A stretch of 64,000 nt of DNA from Azolla caroliniana (taxonomy: Eukaryota; Plantae; Polypodiophyta), in contig JBHGNT010000004.1 of the NCBI GenBank assembly GCA_043228905.1, positions 1,984,001-2,048,000 of the forward strand, read 5' to 3'. Shown here one piece after another: positions 6,448 to 64,000 of the stretch (position 1 is its first letter; every line of letters starts with the position of its first letter). A program made the translations under genes and the position numbers. The notes under the pieces were generated by a model. The model had not been told where the DNA came from, made no database searches, and worked only from the letters and a program-made list of their open reading frames with translations.

Positions 6448-7056
6448 TGTTGGGATTTCGGTCCCTTTCGGATGGGATGGTCGGATATCGGAGATGAATG
6501 CCGACAAGCCCGGTTTCGGTTTCGGATCCGGATGACGAAGACCCCGGCTTCGGTGCCGGATGACGAATGTACCCGGAGAGCGATCCGGATGCAGGGACAT
6601 ATCCGTGAATATGTTCGCTACGAGCCCCCTGAGGCTATAGTTGTAAATAGCCCAAAGTCATATAAGTATAAATATGACTTAGGGCAAACAGTTTTTCTGT
6701 TGCTTCTCATTTTTCTGTTTTTCCACTTTAGAGGAGTGAAGAGAGAGCAGCCGTGAGAGAGAGAAAGAGAGAGAGCGCGAGAGAGAGAAAGAGGTAGACG
6801 CCTCTGTGTATTTCCGCCGCCTGTGGCGAGGACAGCGAGCTCAAGGTCGTCGCCTTGGAGCTCGCCATTGTATATTTCTCTGTGCATAGTTTGGTTCGGA
6901 GTCTCGCACTCCCGTGGTTTTTCCCGTATAGGGTTTTCCACGTTAATCCCTGTGTATCGCGTCTTTCTCTGTATTTCCTATTTTCTGCTACATTGATCCG
7001 CGATTAATCGGTTGTGGCCGAGTTGAGAAGGTGAATCCAAGCGTTGATTCCCAACA
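6448..7056 (+). repeat. 5' LTR of copia element
   Basis: TG...CA with 8-bp terminal IR. No differences seen versus the 3' LTR; the ORF-track peptides in both LTRs are identical. Confidence 0.97.
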
Positions 7057-7059
7057 AAC

Positions 7060-7071
7060 TGGTATCAGAGC
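7060..7071 (+). promoter_or_regulatory. Primer binding site (tRNA-iMet)
   Basis: TGGTATCAGAGC 3 nt after the 5' LTR. Confidence 0.95.
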
Positions 7072-7085
7072 GACTGTTGCAGAAA

Positions 7086-10000
7086 ATGGAAGGCGGCGGC
7101 AGCGGGCAGCCGATGATGATGGTGCTGAATGCACAGAATTACGCCGACTGGAAGATCAAGATGGAGGATCTTCTGATTGTTCGGGACCTGTACGAACCGA
7201 TTGACAGGTCGGAAATACCGAAAGGGGTACTTGAGTCGGAGTGGAAGCTCCTGAACCGGAAAGCCGTAGCGACGATCCGACAATACGTCGATGTAAGCGT
7301 CCTACAACATGTGGCGAACGACACCAACGCATACGAGATGTGGAAGAAGCTGTCGGGCCTCTATGAGAGGAAGAATGCGTTGAACCGGACCTCCCTGATG
7401 AGGAAGATAGTGAATCTCAAGTACCGGGACGGCGAGAGCATGGTGGAACACGTAAGCACGTTCATGGGATTCGTGAATCAGCTTGCGGCGATCAAGTTCC
7501 CGTTGGAGGATGCAATGCAAGCCATCATCCTGATGTGTACATTGCCGGAAAGCTGGGAGAACTTGGTGGTGACTCTCAGCACCTCGTGCACCGAAGATAA
7601 CTTGTCCTTACAAACGGTAAAGACAAGTATTCTGAATGAAGAAGCGCGTCGGAGAGATAAGGAACCGGCCTCCGACCCGAAGATGCTGTTTACCGAATCG
7701 GATCGGGGAAGACAGTGGAACCGGAGTCCGCAAAGACGGGAGAAGTCGGGGACCCGGTCGCAGTCAAGAGGAAGGCCAACATGCTTCCACTGTGGGAAGC
7801 CGGGGCACTTCCGGAAGAACTGTCGGCATTACCGAAAAGACAACGGAGCCGACGACACCGACTCGAAGAAGTCACCGGAGAGAAACGGTGCATACCGGGG
7901 AGCCACGGACCGGAGAGGTTCGGATCGGCGAGGGCAAGACCGGAAAGGAACAACGGCACTCGCGGCAAGTGAGGAAGAAATCATGCTCATCACCGAAGAA
8001 GGTGAGCTAAACGTTGCCGGCGATGAGACGACCTGGGTGGTCGATTCCGGAGCATCGTTCCACCTGACCCCGGAGAGAAGATACTTCTCATCCTACACAG
8101 CCGGCGAGCATGGCTGTGTTCGGATGGGAAATGAAGGTACGTGCCGGATTGCCGGCATAGGAGACGTGTGGTTGACAACCCCGACCGGATGCAAAATGCT
8201 GCTGAAAGATGTCCGACACGTTCCGGAGGTCCGATTGAACCTGATTTCGGCCGGGAGGCTAGATGATGAAGGCTACACGGGTAGCATCCGGAACGGTGTC
8301 ATGAAGTTCAGCAAGGGGAGCTTGATAGTGGTTCGGGCCCGGAAGGTCAACACACTGTACCTGATGAATGCCCGGTTATGTCCGGAAGAGCTGAATGTGG
8401 CAGCCGACACTGCCGGTGAGCTGTGGCACAAAAGACTGTGCCACATGAGTGAGAAGGGGATGAAGAGGCTTGCAGAAGACAACCTCATCCCAGTGAAGCA
8501 CGTGCACCTGGAGAAGTGCACCGATTGCCTGGCCGGTAAGCAGAACCGAACCTCCTTCCACTCAAGGCCACCGACGAGACGTAGCGCACCATTGGAGTTG
8601 GTGCACACTGATGTGTGTCAGGTAGAAACGAAGTCACATGGCGGAGCCCAGTACTTCGTGACATTCATTGATGATCACAGCCGGAAGCTGTGGACGGCAC
8701 CGTTGAAGACAAAGGACCAAGTGTTGTCCGTCTTCAAAGAACTCCACGCGAGAGTGGAAAGGGAATCCGGCAAGAAGCTGAAAGCGATACGAGCGGATAA
8801 CGGAGGGGAATACCGGGGGCAGTTCCAGGAGTACTGTCGCTCGAAGGGAATCCGACTCGAGTTTACTGTGCCGAAGACGCCGGAACTGAACGGGCTGGCC
8901 GAGAGGATGAACCGGACCATAATGGAGCGGGTCCGGAGTATGCTGGCGCATGCGAAATTACCCAACGGGTTTTGGGCTGAGGCAATGTCGACGGCGACAT
9001 ACGTGATAAACCGATCACCCTCAGTACCTTTGGACGGAGACACGCCGCAGAGAGTGTGGACCGGTAAGGAAGTGTCCTACCGGCATCTGAAGGTGTTCGG
9101 GTGTCTCGCATACGTGCATGTGGCAAAGGACCGGAGAGGAAAGCTAGATCCGAAGACCCGGCCATGCATATTCCTCGGTTACGGCGACGACGAGTTCGGC
9201 TACCGAGTATGGGACCCGGTCGACAAGAAGATATTCCGGAGTCGTGATATCATCTTCATGGAGGACAAGACACTCGCCGACTGGGAGTCGGAGAAGAAGA
9301 TGAAGAGCTCCAAGTCGATCGGTGAGGATCAACTCTACGAGGAGCAGTCCCGACCGGCAAGGGACCGGTTAGCACTCGAGGATCCGGCCGAAGACAGTGA
9401 AGAAACAGAACCGGCCGAAGAAGATGAAAATGATACCGGAACCGGCCCCGATCCCGAAATGGATTCGGATGAAGAAGAAGAATCGGAAGAACCGGTTACC
9501 GAAGCTCCGGAACGGAGATACCCTCTAAGAGAGAGAAGGGCCCCCCGGAGATTTCCGGAACCAGAGCACGTGTTGCTAACCGACGAGGGGGAGCCGGAGA
9601 GCTTTGAAGAAGCGAAGAATGACACCCAGAGCCGCAGGTGGTTGAGTGCCATGCAGGACGAGATGGATTCCCTGCATGAGAACCACACATATGAACTTGT
9701 GGAGTTGCCGAAGGGAAAGCGGGCACTTCGAAACAAGTGGGTGTTCAAGCTGAAACCGGGAGATGCCGGAAACCCCCCGAGATACAAAGCCAGGATCGTG
9801 GTGAAGGGGTTTCAGCAAAAGAAGGGCGTCGACTTCGACGAGATATTTGCCCCGGTAGTGAAGATGACCTCCATCCGGACGGTGCTGAGCATAGCGGCAA
9901 GCATGGACCTCGAGGTAGAACAGATGGACGTGAAGACAGCATTCCTTCACGGTGACCTCGAAGAAGAAATCTACATGCAGCAACCGGAAGGATTCGAGAA

Positions 10001-11162
10001 GAAAGGGAAGGAGCACCTGGTATGCCGGTTGAAGAAGAGCCTTTACGGACTGAAGCAGGCTCCCCGGCAATGGTACCGGAAGTTCGACTCCTTCATGACC
10101 GACGAAGGGTACCTCAAAACGCAGTCCGACCACTGCGTGTTTGTGAAGAAGTTTGAAGGAGGAGACTTCCTAATACTCCTCCTGTACGTGGACGACATGT
10201 TGATCGTCGGACGGGACCAGGTCAAGATACGGATGCTGAAGAAGGCTCTTCACCGAACCTTCTCAATGAAGGACCTGGGTCCGGCGAGGCAAATACTAGG
10301 GATGCACATCATCCGGGACCGGAAGAAGAAGCAGTTGTGGCTGTCACAGGAGAAGTACGTGACAAAGGTGCTTCAACGGTTCAACATGTCGGAAGCAAGA
10401 CCGGTCGGATCGACCCTCCCGGCAAACTGCAATCTGTCCAGCAAGCAAAGTCCCAAGACAAAGGCTGAAAAGGAGGATATGATGAAAGTGCCGTATGCCT
10501 CAGCCGTCGGGAGCTTGATGTACGCCATGGTGTGTACGAGACCGGACATCGGATATGCAGTCGGAGTGGTGAGCCGGTACATGAGCAATCCCGGCAAAGA
10601 GCATTGGAACGCAGCCAAGTGGATACTCCGATACCTGAAGGGCACGGCAAACGTGTGCCTCCGATTCGGCTCCGGTAAGCCCGAACTCGAAGGCTTTACT
10701 GATTCTGATATGTCGGCTGATGCAGATACCAGCCGGTCCACATCAGGGTATGTGATGACGTATGCAGGGGGAGCTGTTTCGTGGCAGTCGAGGCTGCAGA
10801 AGACGGTTGCGTTGTCAACCACGGAGGCGGAGTACATGGCGGCTGTTGAAGCCGGCAAGGAAATAATATGGATGAAGGACTTCATTAGAGAGCTCGGTAT
10901 CCGGCAAGAGGAGTACCGACTCTACTGCGACAGTCAGAGTGCCATCCACCTTGCGAAGAACGCAGCCTATCACTCCCGGACGAAGCACATCCAGCGAAGA
11001 TATCACTGGATCCGGGAAAGGATAGAAGACAAGGAGTTCGTGCTGACGAAGATCCACACCGACGAGAACGGGTCGGATATGCTGACCAAGGTGCTCACAC
11101 CCGACAAGCTGGAAGCATGCCGGAAGAGGATCGGATTGGAAAGACATCCCATGCCGAAGTGA
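7086..11162 (+). CDS. Copia Gag-Pol polyprotein (1358 aa): Gag, CCHC knuckle, protease, integrase, RT, RNase H
   Basis: CFHCGKPGHFRKNC; VVDSGASFH; LWHKRLCHMS; VHTDVC/ADNGGEY/NGLAERMNRT; YVDDML; FTDSD/EAEY/CDSQSA. INT-before-RT order. First true ATG is at 7086 (the ORF track starts at a TTG inside the LTR). Confidence 0.97.
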   Translation: MEGGGSGQPMMMVLNAQNYADWKIKMEDLLIVRDLYEPIDRSEIPKGVLESEWKLLNRKAVATIRQYVDVSVLQHVANDTNAYEMWKKLSGLYERKNALNRTSLMRKIVNLKYRDGESMVEHVSTFMGFVNQLAAIKFPLEDAMQAIILMCTLPESWENLVVTLSTSCTEDNLSLQTVKTSILNEEARRRDKEPASDPKMLFTESDRGRQWNRSPQRREKSGTRSQSRGRPTCFHCGKPGHFRKNCRHYRKDNGADDTDSKKSPERNGAYRGATDRRGSDRRGQDRKGTTALAASEEEIMLITEEGELNVAGDETTWVVDSGASFHLTPERRYFSSYTAGEHGCVRMGNEGTCRIAGIGDVWLTTPTGCKMLLKDVRHVPEVRLNLISAGRLDDEGYTGSIRNGVMKFSKGSLIVVRARKVNTLYLMNARLCPEELNVAADTAGELWHKRLCHMSEKGMKRLAEDNLIPVKHVHLEKCTDCLAGKQNRTSFHSRPPTRRSAPLELVHTDVCQVETKSHGGAQYFVTFIDDHSRKLWTAPLKTKDQVLSVFKELHARVERESGKKLKAIRADNGGEYRGQFQEYCRSKGIRLEFTVPKTPELNGLAERMNRTIMERVRSMLAHAKLPNGFWAEAMSTATYVINRSPSVPLDGDTPQRVWTGKEVSYRHLKVFGCLAYVHVAKDRRGKLDPKTRPCIFLGYGDDEFGYRVWDPVDKKIFRSRDIIFMEDKTLADWESEKKMKSSKSIGEDQLYEEQSRPARDRLALEDPAEDSEETEPAEEDENDTGTGPDPEMDSDEEEESEEPVTEAPERRYPLRERRAPRRFPEPEHVLLTDEGEPESFEEAKNDTQSRRWLSAMQDEMDSLHENHTYELVELPKGKRALRNKWVFKLKPGDAGNPPRYKARIVVKGFQQKKGVDFDEIFAPVVKMTSIRTVLSIAASMDLEVEQMDVKTAFLHGDLEEEIYMQQPEGFEKKGKEHLVCRLKKSLYGLKQAPRQWYRKFDSFMTDEGYLKTQSDHCVFVKKFEGGDFLILLLYVDDMLIVGRDQVKIRMLKKALHRTFSMKDLGPARQILGMHIIRDRKKKQLWLSQEKYVTKVLQRFNMSEARPVGSTLPANCNLSSKQSPKTKAEKEDMMKVPYASAVGSLMYAMVCTRPDIGYAVGVVSRYMSNPGKEHWNAAKWILRYLKGTANVCLRFGSGKPELEGFTDSDMSADADTSRSTSGYVMTYAGGAVSWQSRLQKTVALSTTEAEYMAAVEAGKEIIWMKDFIRELGIRQEEYRLYCDSQSAIHLAKNAAYHSRTKHIQRRYHWIRERIEDKEFVLTKIHTDENGSDMLTKVLTPDKLEACRKRIGLERHPMPK

Positions 11163-11170
11163 AGGGGGAG
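11158..11170 (+). promoter_or_regulatory. Polypurine tract
   Basis: AGTGAAGGGGGAG immediately before the 3' LTR, overlapping the gag-pol stop codon. Confidence 0.9.
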
Positions 11171-11172
11171 TT

Positions 11173-11781
11173 TGTTGGGATTTCGGTCCCTTTCGGATGG
11201 GATGGTCGGATATCGGAGATGAATGCCGACAAGCCCGGTTTCGGTTTCGGATCCGGATGACGAAGACCCCGGCTTCGGTGCCGGATGACGAATGTACCCG
11301 GAGAGCGATCCGGATGCAGGGACATATCCGTGAATATGTTCGCTACGAGCCCCCTGAGGCTATAGTTGTAAATAGCCCAAAGTCATATAAGTATAAATAT
11401 GACTTAGGGCAAACAGTTTTTCTGTTGCTTCTCATTTTTCTGTTTTTCCACTTTAGAGGAGTGAAGAGAGAGCAGCCGTGAGAGAGAGAAAGAGAGAGAG
11501 CGCGAGAGAGAGAAAGAGGTAGACGCCTCTGTGTATTTCCGCCGCCTGTGGCGAGGACAGCGAGCTCAAGGTCGTCGCCTTGGAGCTCGCCATTGTATAT
11601 TTCTCTGTGCATAGTTTGGTTCGGAGTCTCGCACTCCCGTGGTTTTTCCCGTATAGGGTTTTCCACGTTAATCCCTGTGTATCGCGTCTTTCTCTGTATT
11701 TCCTATTTTCTGCTACATTGATCCGCGATTAATCGGTTGTGGCCGAGTTGAGAAGGTGAATCCAAGCGTTGATTCCCAACA
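11173..11781 (+). repeat. 3' LTR of copia element
   Basis: Copy of 6448-7056, followed by TSD CAACT. Confidence 0.97.
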
Positions 11782-11877: not shown

Positions 11878-12637
11878 CCATCTCACTCTCGTTGATTCAC
11901 CACCCAAAATCGTGTACCTAAAAAAAAACAAAATGACAGTACTCTCCTCGTCTCTCATTAAATTATGTTACGACCATCAACACCATTATCACTCATCCTT
12001 ATCCAAAATAAAAAAATGCTTCATTTTGCGCATCCACCATCTTGCCCTTGTCCATCCACAGAACTTACTCAAACCCATCCGCCTCATTTATGTACTTCCT
12101 GTCAACTTGTAAGATAAAGAGATTTAAAGAAGAAACTATATACCTCACAATTATGTTTGAAATAAAAAAGGACTAGGGGGTGGGAATAGCCAATGTGGTG
12201 GAACATAATTCCAACGATATTCATGTGACTCATCCAACCAGAGAGGTATTAGCCCCCATCTCACTCTCGTTGATTCACCACCCAAAATCGTGTACCTAAA
12301 AAAAAACAAAATGACAGTACTCTCCTCGTCTCTCATTAAATTATGTTACGACCATCAACACCATTATCACTCATCCTTATCCAAAATAAAAAAATGCTTC
12401 ATTTTGCGCATCCACCATCTTGCCCTTGTCCATCCACAGAACTTACTCAAACCCATCCGCCTCATTTATGTTCTTCCTGTCAACTTGTAAGATAAAGAGA
12501 TTTAAAGAAGAAACTATATACCTCACAATTATGTTTGAAATAAAAAAGGACTAGGGGGTGGGAATAGCCAACGTGGTGGAACATAATTCCAACGATATTC
12601 ATGTGACTCATCCAACCAGAGAGGTATTAGCCCCCAT
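11878..12637. repeat. 378-bp near-perfect tandem duplication
   Basis: ccatctcactctcgttgattcacc at 11878 and 12256; CCAT microhomology at the breakpoints. Confidence 0.9.
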
Positions 12638-19090: not shown

Positions 19091-19541
19091 ACGTGATGTG
19101 AGACAAAGTAAAAGGACATGCAATTATTGATGATCAAATCCTTTTTGCAACATAAAAGGGACCACAAACACGATGAATCTACACACGTGTTTATAATGCC
19201 TCTGTTCCTTAGAAGTTAGAACAATGATTAATGCGTCAAATACTATATATGTTTATACTAGTGTCTTTGACTCCAATATGATTTTTGAACGATGATTTGG
19301 TTCACCAAAATGAAAAACCTAAAAAATACATTGTACATACAACACACAAAGTGATACTTCATCACAAAAATCAGTCTAAAGTCAACCAAAGTCTTATGCC
19401 GTGGGTCGTTTAAGATTCCACCGACAATCATGATGTATGGTATACATATATTCATGATGCATGCATGCATCCAGACATACATATGACATACATACATACA
19501 TATATACATTATATACATACGTGCATGCATGACCATCGACA

Positions 19542-31017
<11,476 letters not shown>

Positions 31018-34611: not shown

Positions 34612-37347
34612 TCATTGTTGTCGTTTTCTATTGCAAAGGATCAAACAAAGCATTGCGATAAACCTTGCGACAAAACCCATGATAAAAAGGACACTTAAAC
34701 ATAGTCCCCAATCATTTAAATCATACGCAGCGCCAGCAAGAAAAACGCATCTCGTGATAAGCCAAACACCAGAATATCTGCATTGCAGATGAAGAAACCA
34801 CAAAACACGATATTGATTAATGACACTCTAACATAGGGCAAGCTCATAATAATAAGAGATTGCAAACATTCTTTACTATGTGAATACGATGCACTGCTAG
34901 AGTTTCCATTTCAAACCAAATGGTTTTATGGTTTACCGTTAAGGTTTTATCATTTGGGGTTTAGGGTTTTAAAAAATCTCATGCATATTTTACACATATT
35001 GACATTTCCTTGCTTTCAAACTGCAAAAATTTAGGGGGTAACTTGCAACTACCCTAATCATTTTCCATATTTGAGCTTCTTTTCTGGCGATATTTGTTAC
35101 AAGGTTGATGGAGAAAAAACTGAAATATGCATTGCATGGAATCAAATGAACTAAATACAAATTACATCAAGGAAGCTTTTACCTCCTGGCATTTGCAATT
35201 ACATATGCTTCGAGCACCCAACGGGCATATGTTGCATATTGTACTATTCGAAAAAATCTTGAGGTACCTTTCTTTGTCGCAATAAGAGTAAATATGATAG
35301 GAAGAAAGACAGACCACTGCGCACACAAAAACAGAAAACTTTGGCATCAGCAGTACGTATTTCACTATCAATATGGAGCATACATGAACACTGAAACAGT
35401 ATGTTATCCCCAGCCCCCTTTAACATAAGGCAAATCCCCCATAAAACTCTGGATTCGTTTGGTATTCACCAGAATACCCCTAAGCTTTCAAAACATACCA
35501 AAACATTTGCAGGAGTATTTCCTGTGTTTTTTCCTTCAACTTATCAGCAATAGTTGTAAACCTTTACTCATGAATCATTCTTCAATATTCCCAATTTTCT
35601 GTCATTCACTTAATCTTGTGCTGCTTATTTTCTAGTTTCACTTTCTCCCAATGTTTTTTTAAAATACACAATATTCGTCTAGATTACCAGCTGGGCAGGT
35701 CCAGCTTCAGATACAATAGCAAAGATGTAGGCAATTCCCGTTACACAGTACACTAAAGCCAAAGTCACGATGTAGTTCTCAACGAAAGTAGATCGGGGAT
35801 TGTTGAAGAAGTAAAACATCGACAAGAAGACCACAGGCTTAATAAGTGTATTGAAATGATCCACGGTATCTTTCGCTAGGAAATAGGCTACTCGGTTAAT
35901 GCTCGATGCACTCTCACGCCAATACTGTAGCTTGTCATTTGAAAAGGTCCTTAAGGCCGAGATCATAGAAAGAAGAGCTGCAATACAATAGTATGTTCAT
36001 TTGAAACCACTAATTCAGATAGTAATCTTTGTGGCTATCATTTTCATTAGCAAAGATATTAAATAGTGATTTTGAGGAGCTTACATAATGCAATAATTAA
36101 GTATGTATAGTTGTTTGACCCCAGATTTGAATCTTTAGAAGGAGTGATCAGCCCTAAACATGCCCCTGCCAGGAGCAAGATTAGATAATCTTGTGTCTGT
36201 AATCTAGCTTCTCGGAACCGTTGAAGGGAAAGCCTGGTACATGGAACAAATCCAAAATTATTTCACACAACGGAATAAATATGCTTGACACAAAGTGCAC
36301 CAGACAGATATGTGATTAGAGATAAATGTAGGAGAAATTTCAGGCTTTGATACTTGTGCTATTTAAGGATCAAAATTTGCAGCAAAAGGGAATCTTAGCT
36401 GTTTGGCTTTCAATCAAACCAGGAAAATTTAAACATATAACCCTACCTGCTGATAATCAGCTTCAACTGACTAAAAAAGCCGAGTGTACGGCGTTGTGAA
36501 AAGTCCTCGGTGTGGCTGAAAATGCTCCTGAAATCATCCCACTTGACCTCCCAAAAGGAAGTAAACTCTTGCCAAAGCTCTTGCCTAAAAGAATTTCTTG
36601 AACCGATAATCCTTGAAACTTCATGCTCTTCATTTCTCGACTTTGATGACTTGTCTAAACTTGATGCTAGAGCTTGTAAGTCATCTGGAATAGGATATTT
36701 GTTGTGCTGGATCCACTTCAGAGGAAGAACCTTAGGATCAAAGTCAGGATTCCCATCAGGTTTAGCAATACCCTCCAAGACATCCATGAAATGATCTGGT
36801 GGATTTATACGGTCAGGAACAAGTATCTTCATGGAAGCGAAGTACTCCTCCACATCATCTACTGGTCCCAAATATACCGTTCGTCCACCTTTTGCAAGGA
36901 GCATAACATCATCGAAGAGCCGGAATAGGCCATAGCTGCCAGCATTCAATAGATTGATAAGATTACTTAATCAACAGCTGAAGTAAAATATAAAACAATG
37001 CCAGTATTAAATGACAAAGATGGGGCCTTCTTTCCCAAATTCCAACCTTGGCTGATGGAGAACAACTCCAACGTTTACCCCCTCTAATGCTTCTCTTCTT
37101 AAAGCTTTCAACACAAATTGTGAGGATGTACTATCCAGACCCGATGTTGGTTCATCCAGAATCAAAAGAGAAGGCTCCATAACCATCTCTAACCCAACAT
37201 TCACTCTTTTCCTCTGCCCTCCAGAAATCCCTCTTTTTTCAACTGTCCCAACTTTAGAACTTCGGATAGCTGAAAGACCGAGGGAATCAATGATGCGTTC
37301 AACAACCAACACTTGTTCTGCCTTCGTCATTTCCACAGGCAGCCTAG

Positions 37348-37424
<77 letters not shown>

Positions 37425-40400
37425 ATATCTATATCTATATACATACACAGATATATATATATATATATGAACATCGAATAGAGAGTATACCTGTAACGGG
37501 CACTGAACCAAAGATTCTCCTCTACAGTCAGATTACCGTGGACTATATCATCTTGAGGCACAAAACCAATAATCTTTTTGTAGCAACTAATAGGATCTGC
37601 TTTCCCATTAATCAATATGACCCCCGTGGTAGTGCTGCTGTAGGCTTTCCCAGCCAAAGCATTTAAGAAGGTAGTCTTTCCAGCACCAGAAGGTCCCATT
37701 ACAGCGGTTACCCGTCCTGGTGATAGTTTACCTGTGACACCACACAGAATCTTTCTCCCACTCCCTTTCAAGAACAAGGAGAGATCTTTGAAAACAATTT
37801 CGAGCTGCATGCGTCTACTTTGCACTTGTTCTTGTCCTGCCTGAAGGATCACATCATTCCATCCATACCGTTTTTTCTGCAATGCCTTCTCTCTTGCAAT
37901 CTCTGCATAAGCATACCTCAAAATCTGACTTTTCGTCTGAGGAACAGATTTCTTCTTTGCACTCGGGTTGTGTCCACTACCCGGGACAGGTGGCACTTCG
38001 ACAGGCTCATATAAATCTTCTTCTATCTCCATTTCTTGTGGTCCAATATTGATTCTTGGAAATCTTCCACTTTCACGATTCTCACCGGTAGACCTAGTTC
38101 TACTATGGTCACTAGAATCTGAGCCCAAAGTATTCCGAGAAGCTAAAACTTGCAGCTCTTCTGAGCCCCTAGTATAGCGCCGTGATAAAGAAGAGCTAAT
38201 CCGTTTCGCAGTATCGATAGCAAACTTCCACCTTTCAACTGCATTGAAATGTTCCCGAACCTGTCGCACAGCTTTTTCACGTGACTTCATTTTCCGCTTC
38301 TCACGGAGGTGCATCACATGGTCAGAGCAGTTATACACAAGCATCAGGATTGTTGCCAACCCTACCTACATGAACAATACAATGTCAAACTAATTAGGAT
38401 ATAACAGCTCCTAATAGCATTCCCTTGGCATTTTGTGATTCTATGTTCCCTACATGGATAATACCCATGATAGCATTGATTCTTTGAAGTTTTCTCCATT
38501 TTGCTAGCCGAAAACCCTCTCAACATCCTTATTATAAGGAAAAAAAAGTGTGTGAGAGAGAGAGAGAGACGAAAATGGCCATATCATTGTAGTCCAAGGA
38601 ATCTTCACTGCATGCAATTCCCTATAAACTCTTCACTGTGTGAAACATACTGAAAATCTTTCTAATTCGAAAACCTCCAGGTTTTCTAAACAGAAGCCAC
38701 TATAGCAGTAACACTATCCATACATATTTGTTTGGCTTCATCTTGAAAGTAGCTAGGTACAAGAGATGTGTATCCGTATGTTTGAACATATACATACATA
38801 AAAACAGTGAAAGAGACCTTTCATAAGTAATGCACACGTAATGATCAATATTCAGGGCATTTGACTTGGAAAAGGTTTAAGTTCAGATATCATACGATAA
38901 TCATGAGACCATAACTCTGGATATTTTGGGTGGTAGCTTGAGCATCACATGATACTAGAAGATAGCATTCTGCAACATAGGGAGGAAACAACTCAAATAA
39001 GAAAAAGTGTTCGACGAACAACATTAAAATTTCAGAATTGCATTTAATGCTTACTTTTCTCTATTGTTGATCCTTGCCTACAATAATACCTGCCAACCAA
39101 GAAATAGAGAGCTCAGGTTTTATACCAGTAGTAAGATTGTTGTCTGATGCATAAACAATTCCCAAGGAGTCTTACCCCTTATCACATTCGCGTATATCAG
39201 TGGGACCTGGACAGTAAGAACCTCCAGGACAAAAAATGCCATTAGAGTTGGGACGGTTTGCCCAAAGATTTGCACCTCCACAAGTATAGTTTCTACCAGG
39301 TGTCAACGGATAGTTGTATCTAATTAAAAACAAGGACATTTATTGAAATCTCTTTGAACAGTAGATTTTGTATTCCAGTAGAAACATACATACAAAGGAT
39401 TCCATGACTACACAGAATGTCATTGACAATGGGAATGGACACAACTACAACAAGTTACACATTATTAAGACTCAAAACAAACAATCTCTCGGAAGCAAGA
39501 ATGAGAAATGCAATTTGTGCAATGCAATGTCCCTGAAAGTGTTGAAGTTTTTTCTTGCAGTTCATTGATTTTGTGTTTTAACTGGAAGCAATATATATGA
39601 AGTTACATATTTTCGAATAGGAACTAAGAAAGGCCTTATACATGTCGTCACACATGAGCCAAGTTAGTTCTGCCTCAAGTGCCCACAACAAATGACACAA
39701 ATGCATATAAGTCACTCAACAAGTTGGCCAAGGATTCGGGATCATACGTAGGATTCCATTAGACTCCAGCAGAAGCACTTGGAATATTCTTGGATGCCAA
39801 CTTTGCCTTGGTGAACTCAGAAGTTAGGAGACTTCTTCAAATATTCCTTCCTGAAGGACACATTTGGTCATGTCGGTGCCCAGTCAGGTGAGGCATACAT
39901 GTTGGTTGGCTTTCAAAACCCATATAAATCTCCAACCTCTAGGAAGTCTTGCCTAATCACAATCCCTCATAAAATTCCCCATACTTTCCCTATTTGAAAA
40001 ACGTTAGATAGATGTAGTCCTCTAACCTGCCTCTTCATTTCCAGTTTGTTCCAAATTGATCTATTACTCTCCAACCTCTAGGAAGTCTTGCCTAATCACA
40101 ATCCCTCATAAAATTCCCCATACTTTCCCTATTTGAAAAACGTTAGATAGATGTAGTCCTCTAACCTGCCTCTTCATTTCCAGTTTGTTCCAAATTGATC
40201 TATTACTCATCCTAGGCTTCATTATAGCAATTTGCACCCATACAACAACAAAAATACAGCCATATTGAGACTATTGAGACTTTATTGTAGCCAAAGTCTG
40301 AGGATCCATGGGTATGTGAGAGCACAGGCTTCTTTTTAATCAAATCAATTGTTGTCCTACTTTTCTTTGTCATTTCTTCCGTTAAAGGTGTGCATAATGC

Positions 40401-53720: not shown

Positions 53721-55106
53721 TACAAAAGGCTCTTGGACCTAGTTCAACTATAGAAAAGTTGTTGCATACAAATATACTCGTTTTGTCAAATGAGAAGATA
53801 ATTAAAAGGGAGAGACAGTAAAATGTTGGGTAAATATTGCATGCATGTGTGTATATAAATACACACACACACACATATATATAAACTTATAATATATGTA
53901 TATATACACACATATATGCATATTTATGTGCTATTTACTAGATACTAGATCTGCTATTAACCCTGCAGGAACCTTTGTGCGTTGGTGTGTGGATTGATTT
54001 TGGGGTTTCCATTTGAATTGATTGGGTGGGTTCGTTCAAATCAGTTAACGGTCAGAAGAAAAGGGCGGCCCATACTTACATACATAATACATAGATTGGA
54101 TGGATGGATCAATCAGATAGAGAGACACACATTGGGATGGATAATGGATAAGAGGGGAGGGATTAAGCGGGGGTAGAGTATTATTATATTATGTTAGGCC
54201 AGGCTTGTGTCTTTCTTGGGGAAAATGAATTAAAGGAATCATCACTCACTCAAATCATTCACCAACCCCTCACACTACAGTAGCGGCTACCCTATGCTCC
54301 TTCTTGCTATACATATATAACTGCTCTAAAGAATGAATGAATGAATGAATGACTGGTTCGAATTTAATAAATTAAGCTCTCCCTAACCGACTCATTCCTT
54401 AACTTCATTAACTGATGAGCACCTCTCCCCCCCCCCCCAAAAAAAAAACTCTCAATGAACGACTGACTGGTCACTGATTGACTGACTGACTGACTGATAA
54501 GGATATACATATATACATACATACGTACATACACCAAACCAAATAATTGGGCCCAGTACGTACATAGTGAGGAGGATATTCGTATATACATATAAACCTA
54601 TTTACATACATCAATACATACGTGTACATACATACATACGTGTACATACGTACATACGTATGTACGTATACGATATAAACTAATTCACGCCCCTCACTCA
54701 GAAATAGTCAGGGATAGATACATAGATGTCTTTTATTTAACTCACCTACAATTTAGGTGATTGCCGGCGGCGGCCGCCCTCCTCCTCCACTTATCATGAC
54801 CACCTCTCCCATCGCCATGTCCATGTCCATGTCCATGTCCATTTCCATCGTCGTCTTCTTCCACAGCATAACCATCATCATCTTCTCCACCTTTAACATC
54901 TCTATATTGAACATCTTATTTCATTTTTCAGTCAAATTCTGCAGCTTTTCCCCCTCCCTCCCTCCTCTCCTCTCTGTAAGGAAACGAAGAAGAGGAACCA
55001 CAAGAAGAAGAAGAAGAAGACGGAGGAAGACGAAGGCTTGGCTTGGCAGTTCGAGAGAGATCGAGTGGTTACCGTCCTCACCATCCCAATCCAGTCTTGC
55101 AGTAAC

Positions 55107-57560
55107 ATGTTAATTCGTTTAGCTTTCCATCCTAAGGCGTGCTCCAAGTTACTACGCGCGTTGATGAAGAAGATTAGGTCTTTCACAGATTCCATGGCCA
55201 TTCCAGCCTCAGGTTCAATATCTGAGACGCATTGGCGACGTTCTCCTTCTACGAGAAGCAGACATAGAAGAAAAGTTAGCTTGCGAAAGGATAAAATCGA
55301 TGAAATTCCAGTCAGATCATCATCTAGAATCCATAGCGATCTTCCTGAATGTAGACGTCTGAAACGAAGATCCAGAGTTCACATTAAGAAGGCCGCCATT
55401 AATGGACCTCGTTTCTGCAGAGATAGAGATAATCTCACTTTCCCTGGAAACTTGAATGAGCGCAGAAGACACGGCGATTTTAGCTCCTTCATGACTAGAA
55501 TCAGCCAGGAAGCAGCATGCAATAGCCATGACGTTGATCGAGCCCAAGATTATCCATTAACGTGCGGCGATGCAACTAAGAATTCCTCAGTAACAGGCAG
55601 TGATGAAGCGAAAGACTTTTCACAGACTTTCAAAGATCCGAGAAATCATGATTCTAAACTGGCTTGCAGAACACGAACGCAGGATTCTACTGTAGCTTGT
55701 AGTGATGAACGCAACAGCCATCTAGATCCTCGAAACATGAAGGAGACAGACATGTCTACCTATGGCATGATGGAAGCTTATAGCCACATACATAATGTAA
55801 CAAAGGATTCTTCGCTGGTTTACAGAGGCAAATATGACATCAGTACCGACCCAGACAATAATGAGGAACGGAGGAAATATACAGGTGTCGACGAATTTCC
55901 AAGTGGGATTGACCGAGAAGATGCTTGTCGAACGAAATATTATACATTACGCACCAAAGATGCAGGCGGCCTTATTAGCAGCACTGGCAAGATTCATCGG
56001 CGAAATAATAAAGGCAGTGATGATTATGACTTTGCCGGCAAAATACTCGAAAAAAGCCATCCAAGTTATGGCCAAAAGAGTGCAGGGGATTCTTCAGCTA
56101 GTAGAGATGGGGATAACCTCCTCTGTTCTCACAGCATCGTTAGCAGGTATGCAGAACATAAAACGGATTCTTCAAAGCTTAAGGGTCAGAAAAATATCTT
56201 GGATCATGTCAAAGTCAATACTCCAAGAAGGAGACGATCTCCGAGCGATGGTTGTTCTCTCGTTATTGGTCTCGATCAAGACTTCCATCTCTCCGGGGAC
56301 GCACCCAAGAAATCTTCACTCTGTGGAGAACGAACCAATCTTCCGAGTGATTCCTGTAGCTTGAATGAAGGGAGAAGGTATGGTGGTTTTCCTTCATATA
56401 GGATGAAGACGAAAAAAGGTCCAGACCAAGCAGAAGAGCCTTCTATTAATGCTTCTGATTCGAGTACAATACCAGATATAGAAACGATTTCCTCTTCAGA
56501 GAAGCATTCCATCAGCTCAGACGAGCTTAATAATAGTTTGGAATCGTCTAAAAACAGAGGCAGATTTGCAATCTCTGGTTTTTATTCGTTGTCAACTAAT
56601 ACCCATATTGATAGTAATGTGGGACCTTCATGGATCCATGAAGGTTCCAATGAAATACCGCATATCCATCAGAAGAGGGATGTGGGAAACTCTTTATCTT
56701 CAACATATGACGATTCATCAAGCATTTCTCCAGATTTGCAATATGATTTCAGCCCATTATACAGAGATTCATCTAGCACTTCTGTGGATGTGCCATCTGA
56801 GTCGACTTCAAGTCTCAATCGTTCTTCCAACATTACTATAGAAATGCTTAGCTCAGAATATCAGTCAAACTCATCAAGCATTTCATCAAACTCCAGCTCC
56901 GGTCTTAGATCCTGTGCATCAAACGCTTCCACTAAACTACATGACTCTGATCGGAGCTCAAAGCATAGAGATTTGGCAAACATTTCTGCAAATTTAGAGG
57001 TGTTGGGTGCAGGTCCAGACCACAGAGGTTTATCAGCTGTTTACCCCAATCTGCAAGATTCTACATTAATGAGCTCAGAACACAGACATTCATCAAGCAT
57101 AACGGTTGGTTCATTGGATTTGAGCTCATCAAGCATTGCCTCTACAGATTTGCTAATATCTGATCTGGACTCTGGAGAAAGGAGAGGTTTGACATCAAGC
57201 ACGATGTCTACAGTCTTGGCGGAATCCGATCATTTGACCTCAAGTCAAGTGAGGGATTCATCAGGGTTTAACACTTCTGCAAATTTGTCAAGATCTCATT
57301 TGAGCTCAAGACACACGAAAGATCCAGCTGAATGTATCATGTCATCGGAGGATTTGACCTCAACGAGAGTAGCTATGGTCAAAATGTCCGAGAACCCTGC
57401 GGAAGATTTCAGGCAGTCCATGCATGAGATGATGATGACCATGACGATGGGCAGTGAAGACATGGAAGAACTTCTCCGTTGCTATCTCACTCTGAACTCT
57501 CCCCACCTTCATGACCTCATTCAAGAGGTTTTCTGTGATGTATGGTGTACCATCTCTTGA
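55107..57560 (+). CDS. OFP: OVATE family protein (long Ser-rich linker, C-terminal OVATE domain), about 817 aa; the true start may lie further upstream
   Basis: C-terminal VAMVKMSENPAEDFRQSMHEMM...DMEELLRCYLTLNSPHLHDLIQEVFCDVW matches the OVATE domain. Long uninterrupted ORF; first in-frame ATG at 55107. Confidence 0.88.
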   Translation: MLIRLAFHPKACSKLLRALMKKIRSFTDSMAIPASGSISETHWRRSPSTRSRHRRKVSLRKDKIDEIPVRSSSRIHSDLPECRRLKRRSRVHIKKAAINGPRFCRDRDNLTFPGNLNERRRHGDFSSFMTRISQEAACNSHDVDRAQDYPLTCGDATKNSSVTGSDEAKDFSQTFKDPRNHDSKLACRTRTQDSTVACSDERNSHLDPRNMKETDMSTYGMMEAYSHIHNVTKDSSLVYRGKYDISTDPDNNEERRKYTGVDEFPSGIDREDACRTKYYTLRTKDAGGLISSTGKIHRRNNKGSDDYDFAGKILEKSHPSYGQKSAGDSSASRDGDNLLCSHSIVSRYAEHKTDSSKLKGQKNILDHVKVNTPRRRRSPSDGCSLVIGLDQDFHLSGDAPKKSSLCGERTNLPSDSCSLNEGRRYGGFPSYRMKTKKGPDQAEEPSINASDSSTIPDIETISSSEKHSISSDELNNSLESSKNRGRFAISGFYSLSTNTHIDSNVGPSWIHEGSNEIPHIHQKRDVGNSLSSTYDDSSSISPDLQYDFSPLYRDSSSTSVDVPSESTSSLNRSSNITIEMLSSEYQSNSSSISSNSSSGLRSCASNASTKLHDSDRSSKHRDLANISANLEVLGAGPDHRGLSAVYPNLQDSTLMSSEHRHSSSITVGSLDLSSSSIASTDLLISDLDSGERRGLTSSTMSTVLAESDHLTSSQVRDSSGFNTSANLSRSHLSSRHTKDPAECIMSSEDLTSTRVAMVKMSENPAEDFRQSMHEMMMTMTMGSEDMEELLRCYLTLNSPHLHDLIQEVFCDVWCTIS

Positions 57561-59263: not shown

Positions 59264-59509
59264 GCCTGCAAAGGTGCGGAGATTGGTTGCATGCCGCGAA
59301 CTTTCCTCTCTCTATGGTACAATAGCTAAGCTTTAATGTTCATGGAGATGATTACAAGATATATACATTATAGGCAGGTCCAAACTGCCTGCAAAGGTGC
59401 GGAGATTGGTTGCATGCCGCGAACTTTCCTCTCTCTATGGTACAATAGCTAAGCTTTAATGTTCATGGAGATGATTACAAGATATATACATTATAGGCAG
59501 GTCCAAACT
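59264..59509. repeat. 123-bp perfect tandem duplication
   Basis: gcctgcaaaggtgcggagattgg at 59264 and 59387. Confidence 0.92.
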
Positions 59510-59666
59510 GTATCAATCAGATGTACCCGGCTCCTCCCAAATGCTTATAAAACACTTGGCATAGAAAAATACGAATTGCACATGATCGAACACATAAATC
59601 TCCAAAAATGAGAAGGTGCCTATAGTGACTTAAACGAGAATGTTGAGAAGAAGCATTTTGACCTAG

Positions 59667-59722: not shown

Positions 59723-60882
59723 TGTTATAGAAAAACTCTCAAAGCTTGGAAATTTTATCTGAGCCTAAATGCATGTCCACACCATTCTTCAATTGATATT
59801 TGTATCTCGGACGATCAAAAGTCATGGTTGGGATGTTGGCCGCACCAACAATGTAGAAATTGTTTCCTTAAACCAGCACAAGGTCAGACGGTCGGTAGAT
59901 TGACCATAGGACGGGGGCGTTTCATTGCAATCGAAGGACGTGCGTGTATCTCTTGCTTGTGTACTCGGTGGGGGTCTCAATATATTTGGCTTATATTTTA
60001 AACACAATAACAAGTACATTATGCATGTTAATATATATTACACACCTCTACAGTTGACTCCGAAGCTATGTTGGCCTTTTGCTTGGAATATTTATTTGAA
60101 GAAGGGTAATGAGGGTGGCTAGTTACCGTGCATATCATAGAAAGCCAAACATACACATTATGCATGACATGAGTGCATGAAACACTGCGAGTGGGTTAGA
60201 GTATATTGCGGCTATTTGCAAGATTGCAAGAACACATAGCAACTCATAATGTTGTGACTAACGGCATGGCCATATTGGCCTTCATATTGGTTCTTTGTTC
60301 GGGCTGCCTCGGCATTGTTTAAGTTCCCCCTCACCCCAGGAACTATAGTGCATAACGAATGGATCCTAGGAGTAGGAACGTGCGCATAAGAGACCATGTA
60401 GAACCAAAATGGTGAGGGTTTTTATTCGTAAAGTAAGCTCGGACAAGAAAATATACATACGAAGAATGAAAAGACAAATGGACCTACGTCCATTTCTGTC
60501 TATCCTTTTTATTATTAATTAGTTAAATAAATTTGAGAAAATAGGAAGAGAATTGTGTGTATGATTGGCCGGCATCCTCCGCCTCCTCCACCTGCCGGCG
60601 TTTGTAAGTTTTTAGGGTTCCACCCAAACTACTTTTATTTCATTGGTCAGCTTACTCTTCTTGACAGCTGGCGTTCGTTAGATGTAGGGTTCCGTCATTG
60701 CTTCCATTTTTGTAGGGTTCCGGCGCTTGTAAGTTTTTAGGGTTCCGCCCAAACGTCTTCTATTTCGTAGGGTGGAAGAAGAAAATTACGACGCAGAAGC
60801 ACAAGAAGGGGTAGGTGGAAGCCGAAGTAGAAGCTCAGGAAGAAGAGGCAAGAGGAATTAGTAGTAGTGGGTTTAGGAAGGA

Positions 60883-63176
60883 ATGGGAAGAACTGCGGAA
60901 GCATGTCCTGCCAGCGGCACATGGCAGCGACAGCCAGCAATGGCGGTCAAGAAGAGTTCGTCAGGCCGTCCTAGAGAGGTGCCCACTGATATGCCAGCAG
61001 AGGAGGCGTATTACAGGGCTCTCAAGCCGGCTTGTACTAAATGCGGACAAAGCAACACCAAATTCCGTTATTTTAATAACAGGTATCGGACAAAGGGCAG
61101 CAGGGTCTCGACGTTGGATCAGCCACGCTACAGATGCGTCTGGCCCTGTAACTACGAGTTCACATACAGCAATCGCTTGCGCCGCAGCACCAGCAAGAGG
61201 AAGTTGAAGAAGACGATGGCTGTTGATTCCTCCGATGTTCCTGTGGCCAACATTAACAATGGTATCAGCTCATGGTATCAACTTATGACAGGTGTGCGGC
61301 CTTTCTTTCCGTTTCATGGAATCCTGTAATCTGCAGGATCATGCTAATTACAATCGGATACATGGCTATCAATGCAGGGCCCACTGATGATCTAATTCTG
61401 CTCCCATTGGACCACCAAGCGATGCTGGCCCCTACAATATTGTCAACCACCTCTGCTCCTACGCTTGCTCCTGTTGAAGAAATTTTCAACAGCAATAGTA
61501 TGGGCTCATCGATTGATCTCGATGGTTACCACCATCACAGAGAACTTGAGCCCTCATCAAGCTTTTGGAGCGAAATTATTACAGGTGCCCCTCTTCTTCC
61601 TATATCCGGGGAGCCAGTAATCTGCGGGACATTTAATCTAATAACATTGTCATCATCGTGCAGGACCGTCGGATGATCTCATTATGGTCCCATGGAACCA
61701 CCAAATTGAAATGGAAACAGGCGCCTACATCTGCCCTACAATATTGTCACCTATCTGTCCTCCTACTAATGCTCCTATTCAAGAAATTTTCAACAGCAAC
61801 AATGATCACCATTATGGTGAACCTGAGCCGTCATCAGGATTTTGGAACGAAATTATGACAGGTGACCCCCTTCTTCCCATACAGGGGGAGCCAGTAATTT
61901 GCGCTTACAATGATGATGCTAATTATCGTTGTCTATCACCGTGCAGGACCGCTGGATGATCCTATTATGCTCCCATGGAATCACCAAATTGAAATGGAAA
62001 CAGGCGCCCAGCTCTGTCCGACAATATTGTCATCCAGCTCTACTCCTACGAGTACCCATATTCAAGAAATTTTTAACAGAAAAAGTATAGACTCATTTAG
62101 TGATCTCGATGGTTACTACGATCATGGAGAACCTGAGCCATCATCAAGTTCTAGGAGCCAAATTGAGACAGGTGCCTGTGTTCTTCCCATAACCAGGGAG
62201 GCAGTAATCTGCGCCACATTGATGCTAATTACATTTTCGTCATCATGCAGGACTAGAGGATGATCCCATTATGCTCCCACGGAATCACCAAATTACAATG
62301 GAAACAGGCGCCTACCTCTGCTCTACAATATTTTCAACCAATGGTACTCCTACTAGTGCTCCTATTGAAGAAAATTTCAACAGCAAGAGTATCGACTCAT
62401 CTAGTGGTCTCGATAGTTACCAACATCATCAAGAATCTGAGCAGTCCTCAAGATCTTGGAGCGAAATTATTACAGGTTCCCCCCTTCTTCCCATATCCGG
62501 GGAGCCATTACTGTCCATCACATTGATGCTAATTACATCTTTATAATCGTGCAGGACTGCTGAATGATCCCATTATGCTCCCATCGAAGCACCAAATTAC
62601 AATGGAAACTGGCGCGTACCTCTGTCCTACCATATCGTCACCCACCTGTGCTCCTACTAGTGCTGCCATCATTTTCAACAACAATGGTATCAGCGGTTCG
62701 GGTGAGCCCGATGATCACCACCAACACCATCAGGAGCCGGCTTCCTCTACCTCTTGGAGCACAATTGTGACAGGTGCGCCTAGTCTTCGCGTATCTTGGG
62801 AGCAAGTAACCGGTGCTAACAATGATGATGCTAATTACGTTATGATCTTCATGCAGGACTGCCGGATGATCCCATCATGCCCCCAGGGGACCAACAAATT
62901 ACGATGGAAATAGGCCGCCCTATAAGTAATCCTTTAATTGAGCAGCAGCAGCAGGAGCAACATCAGCCAGGGAGTATAGCATCGTCATGGCAAGCTACTG
63001 CCAGTGATCTAGCCATGTTGCAATACCTAGCACATGAGCTGCTTTTGGACGATGATATGCTTCCAGAACTCCAGGAGCATTCATTATCAAGTGATATCGC
63101 TTCGATTGAGAGTGACCAAGCGGCACCGGCACCGGGCTTATGTACATCTAATTCTGTTAATCATCACCTGAAATGA
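60883..63176 (+). CDS. Atypical Dof-like C2C2 zinc-finger protein with tandem exon-encoded repeats, about 600 aa (581 aa if the ATG at 60940 is used); exons 60883-61291, 61378-61584, 61664-61861, 61947-62171, 62251-62475, 62555-62773, 62857-63176
   Basis: CTKCGQSNTKFRYFNN...QPRYRCVWPC resembles the Dof consensus CPRCxSxNTKFCYYNN...QPRxFCxxC. Six ACAG|GT...TGCAG|G phase-1 introns splice into one stop-free frame (1803 nt). Confidence 0.78.
61292..62920 (+). repeat. Tandem array of about six 280-305 bp intron+exon units
   Basis: Recurring tgcagg(a/g)c..gatgat..att(a/c)tg(c/g)tccca, atggaaac(a/t)ggcgc, gaaattttcaacagc and acaggt. Confidence 0.9.
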
Positions 63177-64000
63177 ATGGCCTAGCTTGCAGCAGCAGCT
63201 TATCTCGTATGGCCACGATGCACGGTCCTCGACAATCATCCAATTGCAAGAGTCGGAGGCCGACTATAGTATATCAATTCCTGATGCTGTTGCTAGTTAC
63301 TTGTTAATTGTTATACACTCATACATAAATGACAATTAACGCCCTTCATATTGTCTATGTGTATGTATGTGGAATGAAATGTCTGCGTATGTGAGAAAGA
63401 CAAGCTAAAACTCCAAGATTATTATTATTGCCTCTCAGCATGAGCGGGACGTGAATTCATCTCTTCTCGATACTCTGATGTCCATTCTTTCGCTGTGGTG
63501 GTTAACGAAATCTTCATCTTCTACATAACTGAGGTAGTTTATTAACAACATTCGTGTGGACAATCGATCCCTTTGTTTGATGTCGTAATCTGTTGTTGTG
63601 GAAGCGACCCCTTTTCATGAAGGAAGGATGACAGTTTAAGGGGGGACGGTTGAATGCGGAGTCTGAGGCTAGACTAACAGATAAGCTGAATAGTGACCAT
63701 TCACCTATAACATAATAATGGTGGATTACCACACTAGTGGTTATACATTCGATTACGGATCTTACTGACTGAAGGAGCACGTCATTACCTGCTCACTCAC
63801 TGCATCCTTCCTTTCCTGTTTTCTCCCGAGGAATAGTTAATCGAGGGGAGGAGCCGGTTATATTATGCTTCTCTTTACCGGGACACAGTGATTGGATTGA
63901 TATGCCGTCAGGCGCACATTGTTTCCTAATAATCATCACACAGACTATGTTGCTGACTGAAAACAAGCATGTTGCATGGAGGGATTTATATTATGATCAT

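What the first reader, a model, noticed from the sequence alone, without database searches (positions are those of the whole stretch)
61292..62920. Tandem array of duplicated intron+exon cassettes: five symmetric phase-1 exons with homologous introns behind a DNA-binding domain
Seen: the ORF fragments at 61272-63176 resolve into one spliced gene. Six introns (61292-61377, 61585-61663, 61862-61946, 62172-62250, 62476-62554, 62774-62856; 86/79/85/79/79/83 nt) are homologous. Each has an ACAG|GT donor, a ctaat branch-point-like motif and a TGCAG|G acceptor. The five internal exons are 207/198/225/225/219 nt, all multiples of 3 and all phase 1-1. Their length differences are in-frame, while intron lengths are not multiples of 3. 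Inference: the frame has been preserved during serial duplication, so any subset of cassettes could be skipped in frame. That would give a modular, length-tunable effector region on a putative transcription factor. Established: typical Dof genes have zero or one intron, so this architecture is far from the norm.
Basis: partly seen in the sequence, partly recalled or inferred. Interest (0 to 1): 0.85.

Follow-up and report, generated by a model that had tools for sequence, protein, structure and literature searches.

The report
Dof-derived gene with sixfold-copied intron
This plant gene, likely a fern's, pairs a reshaped Dof zinc finger with five tandem copies of a segment that likely spanned its one original intron, which would lengthen a predicted floppy, acidic activation tail; the in-frame layout likely follows from the copying itself, and tunable exon skipping is untested.

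Summary
Six homologous GT-AG introns (all phase 1) and five exons of 207/198/225/225/219 nt join into one stop-free 600-aa frame, 60883-63176. Selection keeps the frame and the splice signals: neutral P(no stop) is 0.003-0.013, and 12 of 12 signal columns are invariant against 14 of 64 others. It also keeps the net acidity, but not the residues (omega 0.79, not different from 1). Homologues show that each cassette is a chimera of the last exon's head and exon 1's tail. The gene's single intron was therefore likely multiplied by tandem duplication, a known process (Arabidopsis TOUCH3), which makes 1-1 symmetry automatic and not a sign of skipping. The N-terminal finger is Dof-derived, but reads CX2CX30CX3C and lacks the K/R/Y/W residues needed to bind AAAG. 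Splicing is predicted, not seen. The scan's index held nothing similar on other DNA. Verdict: a real, unusual gene architecture made by a known mechanism; moderate interest.

The parts
60613..60744 (+). Cluster of four TAGGGTT motifs 140-270 nt upstream of the ATG (telo-box-like; label recalled); candidate promoter/5' UTR
   Evidence: 4 of the 9 + strand TAGGGTT in the 64 kb lie here
60883..61291 (+). Coding exon 1 (136 aa): Dof-derived finger, basic NLS-like stretch, and a tail homologous to the cassette tail (shortened by 18 aa against P0019)
61033..61149 (+). Dof-derived C4 zinc finger, C51-x2-C54-x30-C85-x3-C89
   Evidence: Pfam PF02701 E 3e-4, 21.3 bits < cut-off 26.6; Atlas 0.92 to Dof clusters; best PDB match 8XUF CDF1 Dof in both fold searches; four Cys invariant in 14 of 14 rows
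61292..61377 (+). Predicted intron 1 (86 nt, phase 1); in-frame TAA at 61327-61329 if retained
   Evidence: counterpart read in P0019/P0010 is one base shorter
61378..61584 (+). Cassette exon 2 (207 nt; 18-nt in-frame gap)
61585..61663 (+). Predicted intron 2 (79 nt)
61664..61861 (+). Cassette exon 3 (198 nt; 27-nt in-frame gap)
61862..61946 (+). Predicted intron 3 (85 nt)
61947..62171 (+). Cassette exon 4 (225 nt)
62172..62250 (+). Predicted intron 4 (79 nt)
62251..62475 (+). Cassette exon 5 (225 nt)
62476..62554 (+). Predicted intron 5 (79 nt; weakest donor, CAG|GTTCCC)
62555..62773 (+). Cassette exon 6 (219 nt; 6-nt in-frame gap)
   Evidence: 80% identical counterpart P0009
62774..62856 (+). 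Predicted intron 6 (83 nt)
62857..63176 (+). Terminal coding exon 7 (105 aa + stop): begins with a cassette head and holds an acidic-hydrophobic block (about 62976-63077) conserved in paralogues

Best explanation
This is a likely functional, predicted constitutively spliced Dof-derived transcription-factor gene whose single ancestral phase-1 intron was likely multiplied sixfold by tandem duplication of a ~300-nt segment (exon-1 tail + intron + last-exon head), so that five chimeric exons would extend a predicted disordered, acidic activation region. Shown by sequence: the six introns, the 600-aa frame, the chimeric make-up of each cassette, and selection on frame, splice signals and net charge but not on residues. 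Inferred: splicing itself; unequal crossing-over as the cause, perhaps first at the short NSNSI-like stretch shared by exon 1 and the last exon (profile positions 44-50); one-intron paralogues as the ancestral state; a trans-activation role; and a DNA site other than AAAG for the reshaped finger.
For: Frame: 0 stops in 5 of 5 cassettes against 4.7-6.6 expected under neutral simulation, P(0) 0.0025-0.0125 over 5 start states; 3 of 3 exon gaps are 3n (18, 27, 6 nt). Splice signals: 12 of 12 GT/CTAAT/TGCAG columns invariant against 14 of 64 others, Fisher p 3e-7. Chimera: the cassette profile's positions 2-51 match the start of the terminal-exon ORF of 3 of 3 paralogues tested (E<=2e-10, 11-sequence search) and window exon 7 (positions 2-22); positions 44-74 align to the exon-1 tail of 6 of 6 homologues tested, 4 of them at E<0.01. 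Charge: D+E 48, K+R 8 in 353 aa; net charge kept beyond neutral, P<=0.009 for 5 of 5 start states; cassette model pTM 0.11 with no secondary structure. Finger: 70-79% identity against 24-42% in the flanks in 10 of 10 paralogue-type rows. Related arrays: P0010, P0012 and P0009 keep exon ends, phase and intron read-through with their own in-frame gaps; L001 holds a homologous 101-nt GTAAG..TTGCAG intron. Precedent: TOUCH3, as described in PMC4974935.
Against: omega 0.79 is not different from 1 (LRT p 0.25-0.39) and codon positions differ little (0.26/0.22/0.28), so relaxed or recently lost constraint cannot be excluded from substitutions alone. Donors are non-consensus at +3 to +6 and introns are no more U-rich or AT-rich than the exons (GC 44-48% against 42-51%), which could favour retention. 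Paralogue DNA was not seen: their one-intron structure rests on ORF ends and matching contig lengths (4743, 3095). No rooted tree fixes the direction. Homologous ORF calls are biased towards open frames. The K+R test alone is borderline for the most conservative start state (P 0.053). Two of six exon-1 tails match only weakly (E 0.039, 0.48).
Confidence: 0.7

Rival explanations
1. Regulated cassette skipping: subsets of the five exons are skipped by tissue or life phase, tuning the length and strength of the effector region.
For: All 32 combinations are in frame. Donors are weak and unequal. The exon tree is nearly star-like with low support, and no unit has decayed. An exon-skipping event in a fern transcription factor is reported (PMC12501142 passage).
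Against: The symmetry and 3n lengths need no such explanation. Introns are 79-86 nt. Intron retention is the commonest event in a fern (>40%; PMC12501142), and skipped exons of plants show no 3n enrichment (PMC6142364 passages).
Confidence: 0.12
2. The array is a young pseudogene or an untranslated tail: intron 1 is mostly retained, the product is the 148-aa finger-only protein, and the cassettes now drift.
For: omega near 1; weak donors and GC-rich introns; a degenerate relative exists (L001).
Against: No stops or frameshifts in 1,074 nt of cassettes, invariant splice signals, retained acidity; the terminal block is conserved in paralogues; same-type units are open in a related lineage.
Confidence: 0.1
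3. The cassette is a pre-existing symmetric 1-1 module brought in by exon shuffling, or the array is ancestral and the paralogues lost units by recombination between copies.
For: Deletion between units would also leave a tail on exon 1 and a head on the last exon. Paralogue terminal exons hold two partial heads. Direction was not rooted.
Against: The module was found only in this family: 6 of 8 hits among 1.84 billion representatives, the other 2 being unrelated low-complexity repeats. It has no fold. Dof genes mostly have zero or one intron (PMC3579746).
Confidence: 0.08

Closest known systems
[quoted passage not shown]
   Same: N-terminal C4 finger with the C..C..NT.F.Y.NN....QPRY.C pattern; best match in Pfam, Atlas and both fold searches; basic stretch after the finger; disordered non-conserved C-terminal region.
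   Different: CX2CX30CX3C instead of CX2CX21CX2C. Positions matching CDF2 K166, R170, Y171 and W172 read V, Y, E and F (my alignment by the cysteines; PMC9477738 passages). Below the Pfam cut-off. 600 aa and six introns against 200-400 aa (PMC9897228) and mostly zero or one intron (PMC3579746).
Multiplication of a pre-existing intron by tandem internal duplication: Arabidopsis TOUCH3 (Knowles and McLysaght 2006) and Gao and Lynch 2009, both seen only as described in PMC4974935
   Same: A whole intron is duplicated with exon sequence on both sides, giving homologous introns of one phase.
   Different: Five rounds instead of two. The repeated coding unit is a chimeric, unfolded segment with near-neutral residues, where TOUCH3 repeats calmodulin-like domains (recalled).
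Frame-preserving cassette-exon skipping of animals (PMC6142364)
   Same: 3n symmetric exons that could be skipped in frame.
   Different: Short introns, a plant lineage without 3n enrichment of skipped exons, and no skipping shown.

Membership tests
Dof transcription factor | CX2CX21CX2C spacing in a 50-52 aa domain | tested here: not met
   C51, C54, C85, C89 = CX2CX30CX3C, the same in 14 of 14 rows; definition from PMC9477738 and PMC9897228 passages
Dof transcription factor | PF02701 score above the curated cut-off | tested here: not met
   21.3 bits against 26.6 for the window; 14 of 14 rows match at E<=1, best E 3e-4
Dof transcription factor | Four invariant zinc-binding cysteines in a Dof-type ribbon | tested here: met
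   Cys invariant; model's top match is 8XUF in Foldseek (prob 0.98, E 0.17, rmsd 2.4 over 45 columns) and VIA (Z 4.4, rmsd 2.4, 43 aligned, within 1 Z of ribosomal zinc ribbons). Zinc binding itself was not assayed
Dof transcription factor | K/R/Y/W residues around the last cysteine needed for AAAG binding | tested here: not met
   CDF2 K166/R170/Y171/W172 (PMC9477738) correspond to V/Y/E/F here; EFTY is invariant in the family
Dof transcription factor | Binds (T/A)AAAG and regulates transcription | not testable with these tools
   needs EMSA or DAP-seq
Intron multiplication by tandem internal duplication (TOUCH3 type) | Homologous introns of one phase in head-to-tail units | tested here: met
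Intron multiplication by tandem internal duplication (TOUCH3 type) | Internal exons are chimeras of the downstream exon's head and the upstream exon's tail | tested here: met
Intron multiplication by tandem internal duplication (TOUCH3 type) | Outgroup gene with a single copy of the intron | tested here: inconclusive
   paralogue ORFs fit exon 1 plus a terminal exon on contigs of equal length; DNA not seen, no root
Intron multiplication by tandem internal duplication (TOUCH3 type) | Copied introns are spliced in transcripts | not testable with these tools
   indirect only
Alternatively skipped cassette-exon array | Transcripts that skip units | not testable with these tools
   needs RNA reads of this organism

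The most novel reading that the evidence does not exclude
A lineage-restricted Dof-derived family with a rebuilt finger and a new DNA target, in which one member turned its only intron into a six-copy array and now uses regulated skipping of up to five acidic cassettes (32 in-frame isoforms), plus intron-1 retention to a finger-only repressor, as a rheostat of activation strength between tissues or life phases.
Probability: 0.12. Interest if true: 0.72.

Novelty: new variant of a known kind. Interest (0 to 1): 0.38.

Why it matters
It is a clean, fivefold case of intron multiplication in a family that is normally intron-poor. Six copies of one intron have diverged by about 30% while the splice signals stayed fixed, which gives a natural replicate test of what a short, GC-rich plant intron with a weak donor needs. 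It also shows an effector region growing under selection on frame and charge but not on sequence. The CX2CX30CX3C finger falls below the Pfam cut-off, so family surveys would likely miss it, and it probably binds something other than AAAG. Regulated skipping, if found, would be a rare animal-like isoform array in a plant.

Tried and rejected
Expression: no RNA holder listed (2 runs added by species label); 0 contigs of X1 and X2 were laid on 60500-63600. This is no evidence either way, and whether those runs hold this organism's transcripts at all stays open. No whole genome is held, so paralogues in this genome were not counted. Exon 1 against longer proteins: 0 of 121 candidates, so no spliced, annotated full-length relative was seen. 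PDB by sequence: 0 hits for exon 1, and 2 chance streptokinase rows for the profile. Pfam on cassettes: 1 of 5 weak zf-nanos, E 0.13, rejected. Atlas on exon 7: no usable hit. Locus scans: 1 of 72 stretches in metagenomes (L001), 0 of 47 in prokaryote genomes, 0 of 165 in viral contigs. P0013 and P0014 (snail mucin-like) were dropped as low-complexity matches. Gene conversion among window units: 3 of 10 pairs at p 0.04-0.05, none after correction. Order of duplication: trees are poorly supported (bootstrap 39-86) and differ between exons and introns. Purifying selection on residues: not significant in the whole, head, tail or first 26 codons (lowest p 0.07; kappa on a grid). A non-coding tandem repeat was rejected on the stop, indel, splice-signal and charge tests. 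Literature: 0 papers for Dof + tandem exon duplication + intron; listings showed no title on such a gene or finger. The library lacks most subscription journals, and no supplements (where fern TF tables may list the gene) were read.

Full report
Observation. The window is land-plant nuclear DNA: an OVATE gene, an ABCG transporter, a kinase and a copia element lie in it. Unchecked notes on the same genome call it likely a fern; I did not test this. The six introns are at the stated places with lengths 86/79/85/79/79/83, each ACAG|GT...CTAAT...TGCAG|G with the CTAAT 23-31 nt from the end. From ATG 60883 the seven exons give 600 aa without a stop, all introns in phase 1. The joint motif occurs 6 times in the window, all here, and the unit has no other copy in the window.

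Is it coding and spliced? No transcript could be examined, so I tested selection. (a) The five cassettes carry 0 stops in the spliced frame and at least one per exon in each of the other five frames. Neutral HKY simulation along their tree, started from each of the 5 observed exons, gives 4.7-6.6 stops and P(0) = 0.0025-0.0125. (b) 3 of 3 exon gaps are multiples of three (18, 27, 6 nt). In the introns I count about five gap events, one of them 3n, which depends on the alignment. (c) 12 of 12 GT, CTAAT and TGCAG columns are invariant, against 14 of the other 64 ungapped intron columns (Fisher p 3e-7). (d) Against this, residues are barely constrained: pooled Nei-Gojobori dN/dS is 0.75-0.99 by kappa, ML omega 0.79, LRT against 1 p 0.25-0.39. 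Tree length is 0.79 for the five exons and 0.98 for introns 1-5. (e) Composition is constrained: D+E 48, K+R 8 and S+T+P 116 of 353 aa. Net charge stays more negative than neutral drift predicts for 5 of 5 start states (P<=0.009; K+R alone P 0-0.053), with the caveat that a more acidic ancestor is not excluded. A cassette model has pTM 0.11 and no secondary structure. This is the pattern expected of a disordered acidic region (inference).

Relatives. All come from unnamed metagenome ORF calls on unspliced DNA. The cassette profile found 2 proteins among 7984 scored candidates and 8 among 1.84 billion representatives, 6 in this family and 2 unrelated repeats that I dropped. Exon 1 found 5 of 7 candidates, 13 sequences with cluster members. 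P0001, P0003, P0008, P0018 and P0023 are 94-100% identical to the window. P0010 (65% to exon 2), P0012 (62% to exon 5) and P0009 (80% to exon 6) begin and end at the same exon boundaries in the same phase, read on into recognisably the same introns, and carry their own in-frame gaps. A similar array therefore exists in a related lineage or paralogue; ORF calling favours open frames, so this is weak evidence on frame. The tail of P0019 and the head of P0010 read as two frames of intron 1 with one base fewer. L001 holds a degenerate cassette with a homologous 101-nt intron, GTAAG...TTGCAG.

How it arose. The cassette profile splits in two (9 homologues and 2 window exons, E-values for 11 sequences, output cut before the window exon-1 row). 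Positions 2-51 match the start of the terminal-exon ORFs of 3 of 3 paralogues (P0002, P0004, P0011), which run on into the block conserved with window exon 7. Positions 44-74 align to the end of exon 1 in 6 of 6 homologues (E 3e-6 to 0.48; 4 under 0.01). Each internal exon is thus last-exon head plus first-exon tail, overlapping at a short NSNSI-like stretch. That is what tandem duplication of a segment spanning one intron produces. Every new exon is then flanked by copies of the same intron, so 1-1 symmetry is automatic, and only 3n lengths survive in a working gene. The process is known: PMC4974935 (abstract, introduction and start of methods read) describes it for Arabidopsis TOUCH3 and cites Gao and Lynch 2009; I did not read those papers. 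Exon-1 and terminal-exon ORFs of the paralogues share contig lengths (4743 and 3095), which fits two-exon genes, but I saw no DNA and have no root, so the direction is inferred.

The finger. Pfam Dof E 3e-4, 21.3 bits, under the 26.6 cut-off; Atlas 0.92 with 10 of 10 top families Dof. The model (mean pLDDT 55.6, core 84-87) ranks CDF1 Dof 8XUF first in Foldseek (prob 0.98, E 0.17) and VIA (Z 4.4, rmsd 2.4, 43 aligned, statistically tied with other zinc ribbons). Four cysteines are invariant in 14 of 14 rows, spaced CX2CX30CX3C. The domain is 70-79% identical in 10 paralogue-type rows whose flanks are 24-42% identical, so it is under purifying selection. The canonical spacing is CX2CX21CX2C, and CDF2 K166, R170, Y171 and W172 are needed for binding (PMC9477738 passages); here they read V, Y, E and F. 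It works like a Dof-type finger but fails the defining features, so I call it Dof-derived and predict another DNA site.

Skipping. It is possible in frame for all 32 subsets, and the donors are non-consensus after GT. But the introns are short, intron retention is the commonest event in a fern (PMC12501142 passages), and skipped plant exons show no 3n enrichment (PMC6142364 passages). Retention of any intron brings an early stop. I give regulated skipping 0.12.

Novelty. Dof genes mostly have zero or one intron (PMC3579746 passages) and 200-400 aa (PMC9897228 passages). Searches found no paper on this gene or finger (0 papers; listings), within a library that lacks most subscription journals. 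The scan's own index held no similar finding. Verdict: a real architecture, a known mechanism repeated five times, on an apparently undescribed Dof-derived subfamily; new variant of a known kind, interest 0.38.

Noticed in passing
P0001 versus window 61378-61584 and 62251-62475: A near-identical copy of exon 2 (94%) has, for about 8 residues near its end, the exon-5 sequence instead. This may be a conversion tract between units in another individual, or an assembly artefact; DNA not seen.
   Followed up: partly
P0002, P0004, P0011 (paralogue terminal exons): They hold two partial cassette heads and extra DDPIMLP micro-repeats with no intron between: a separate, intron-less expansion of the same acidic motif.
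   Followed up: partly
L001 1580-1950: Degenerate, frameshifted cassette fragment with a 101-nt homologous intron that has a consensus GTAAG donor and a truncated next exon.
   Followed up: partly
window 61323-61337: Intron 1 has an internal GTAATCTGCAG|G, a possible cryptic acceptor 45 nt in; related sequence sits at the same place in the other copies.
   Followed up: no
window 54897-57560 +: An 887-codon open frame with an OVATE domain only at the C-terminus (E 1e-20), preceded by a long Ser-rich region.
   Followed up: no
window about 6740-11520 +: Copia LTR retrotransposon with an intact gag-pol frame of about 1,360 aa and matching GA-rich repeats at both ends; probably recent.
   Followed up: no
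window 35100-38400 - and 19200-22700 -: ABCG transporter exons (PF00005, PF19055) and receptor-like kinase exons. The 452-codon ABCG frame reads through a (TC)35 microsatellite at 37353-37423, likely an intron without a stop.
   Followed up: no
window 59264-59510: Perfect 123-nt tandem duplication; other exact or near-exact duplications at 11878-12637 and 39929-40208 suggest frequent local duplication or assembly artefacts.
   Followed up: no
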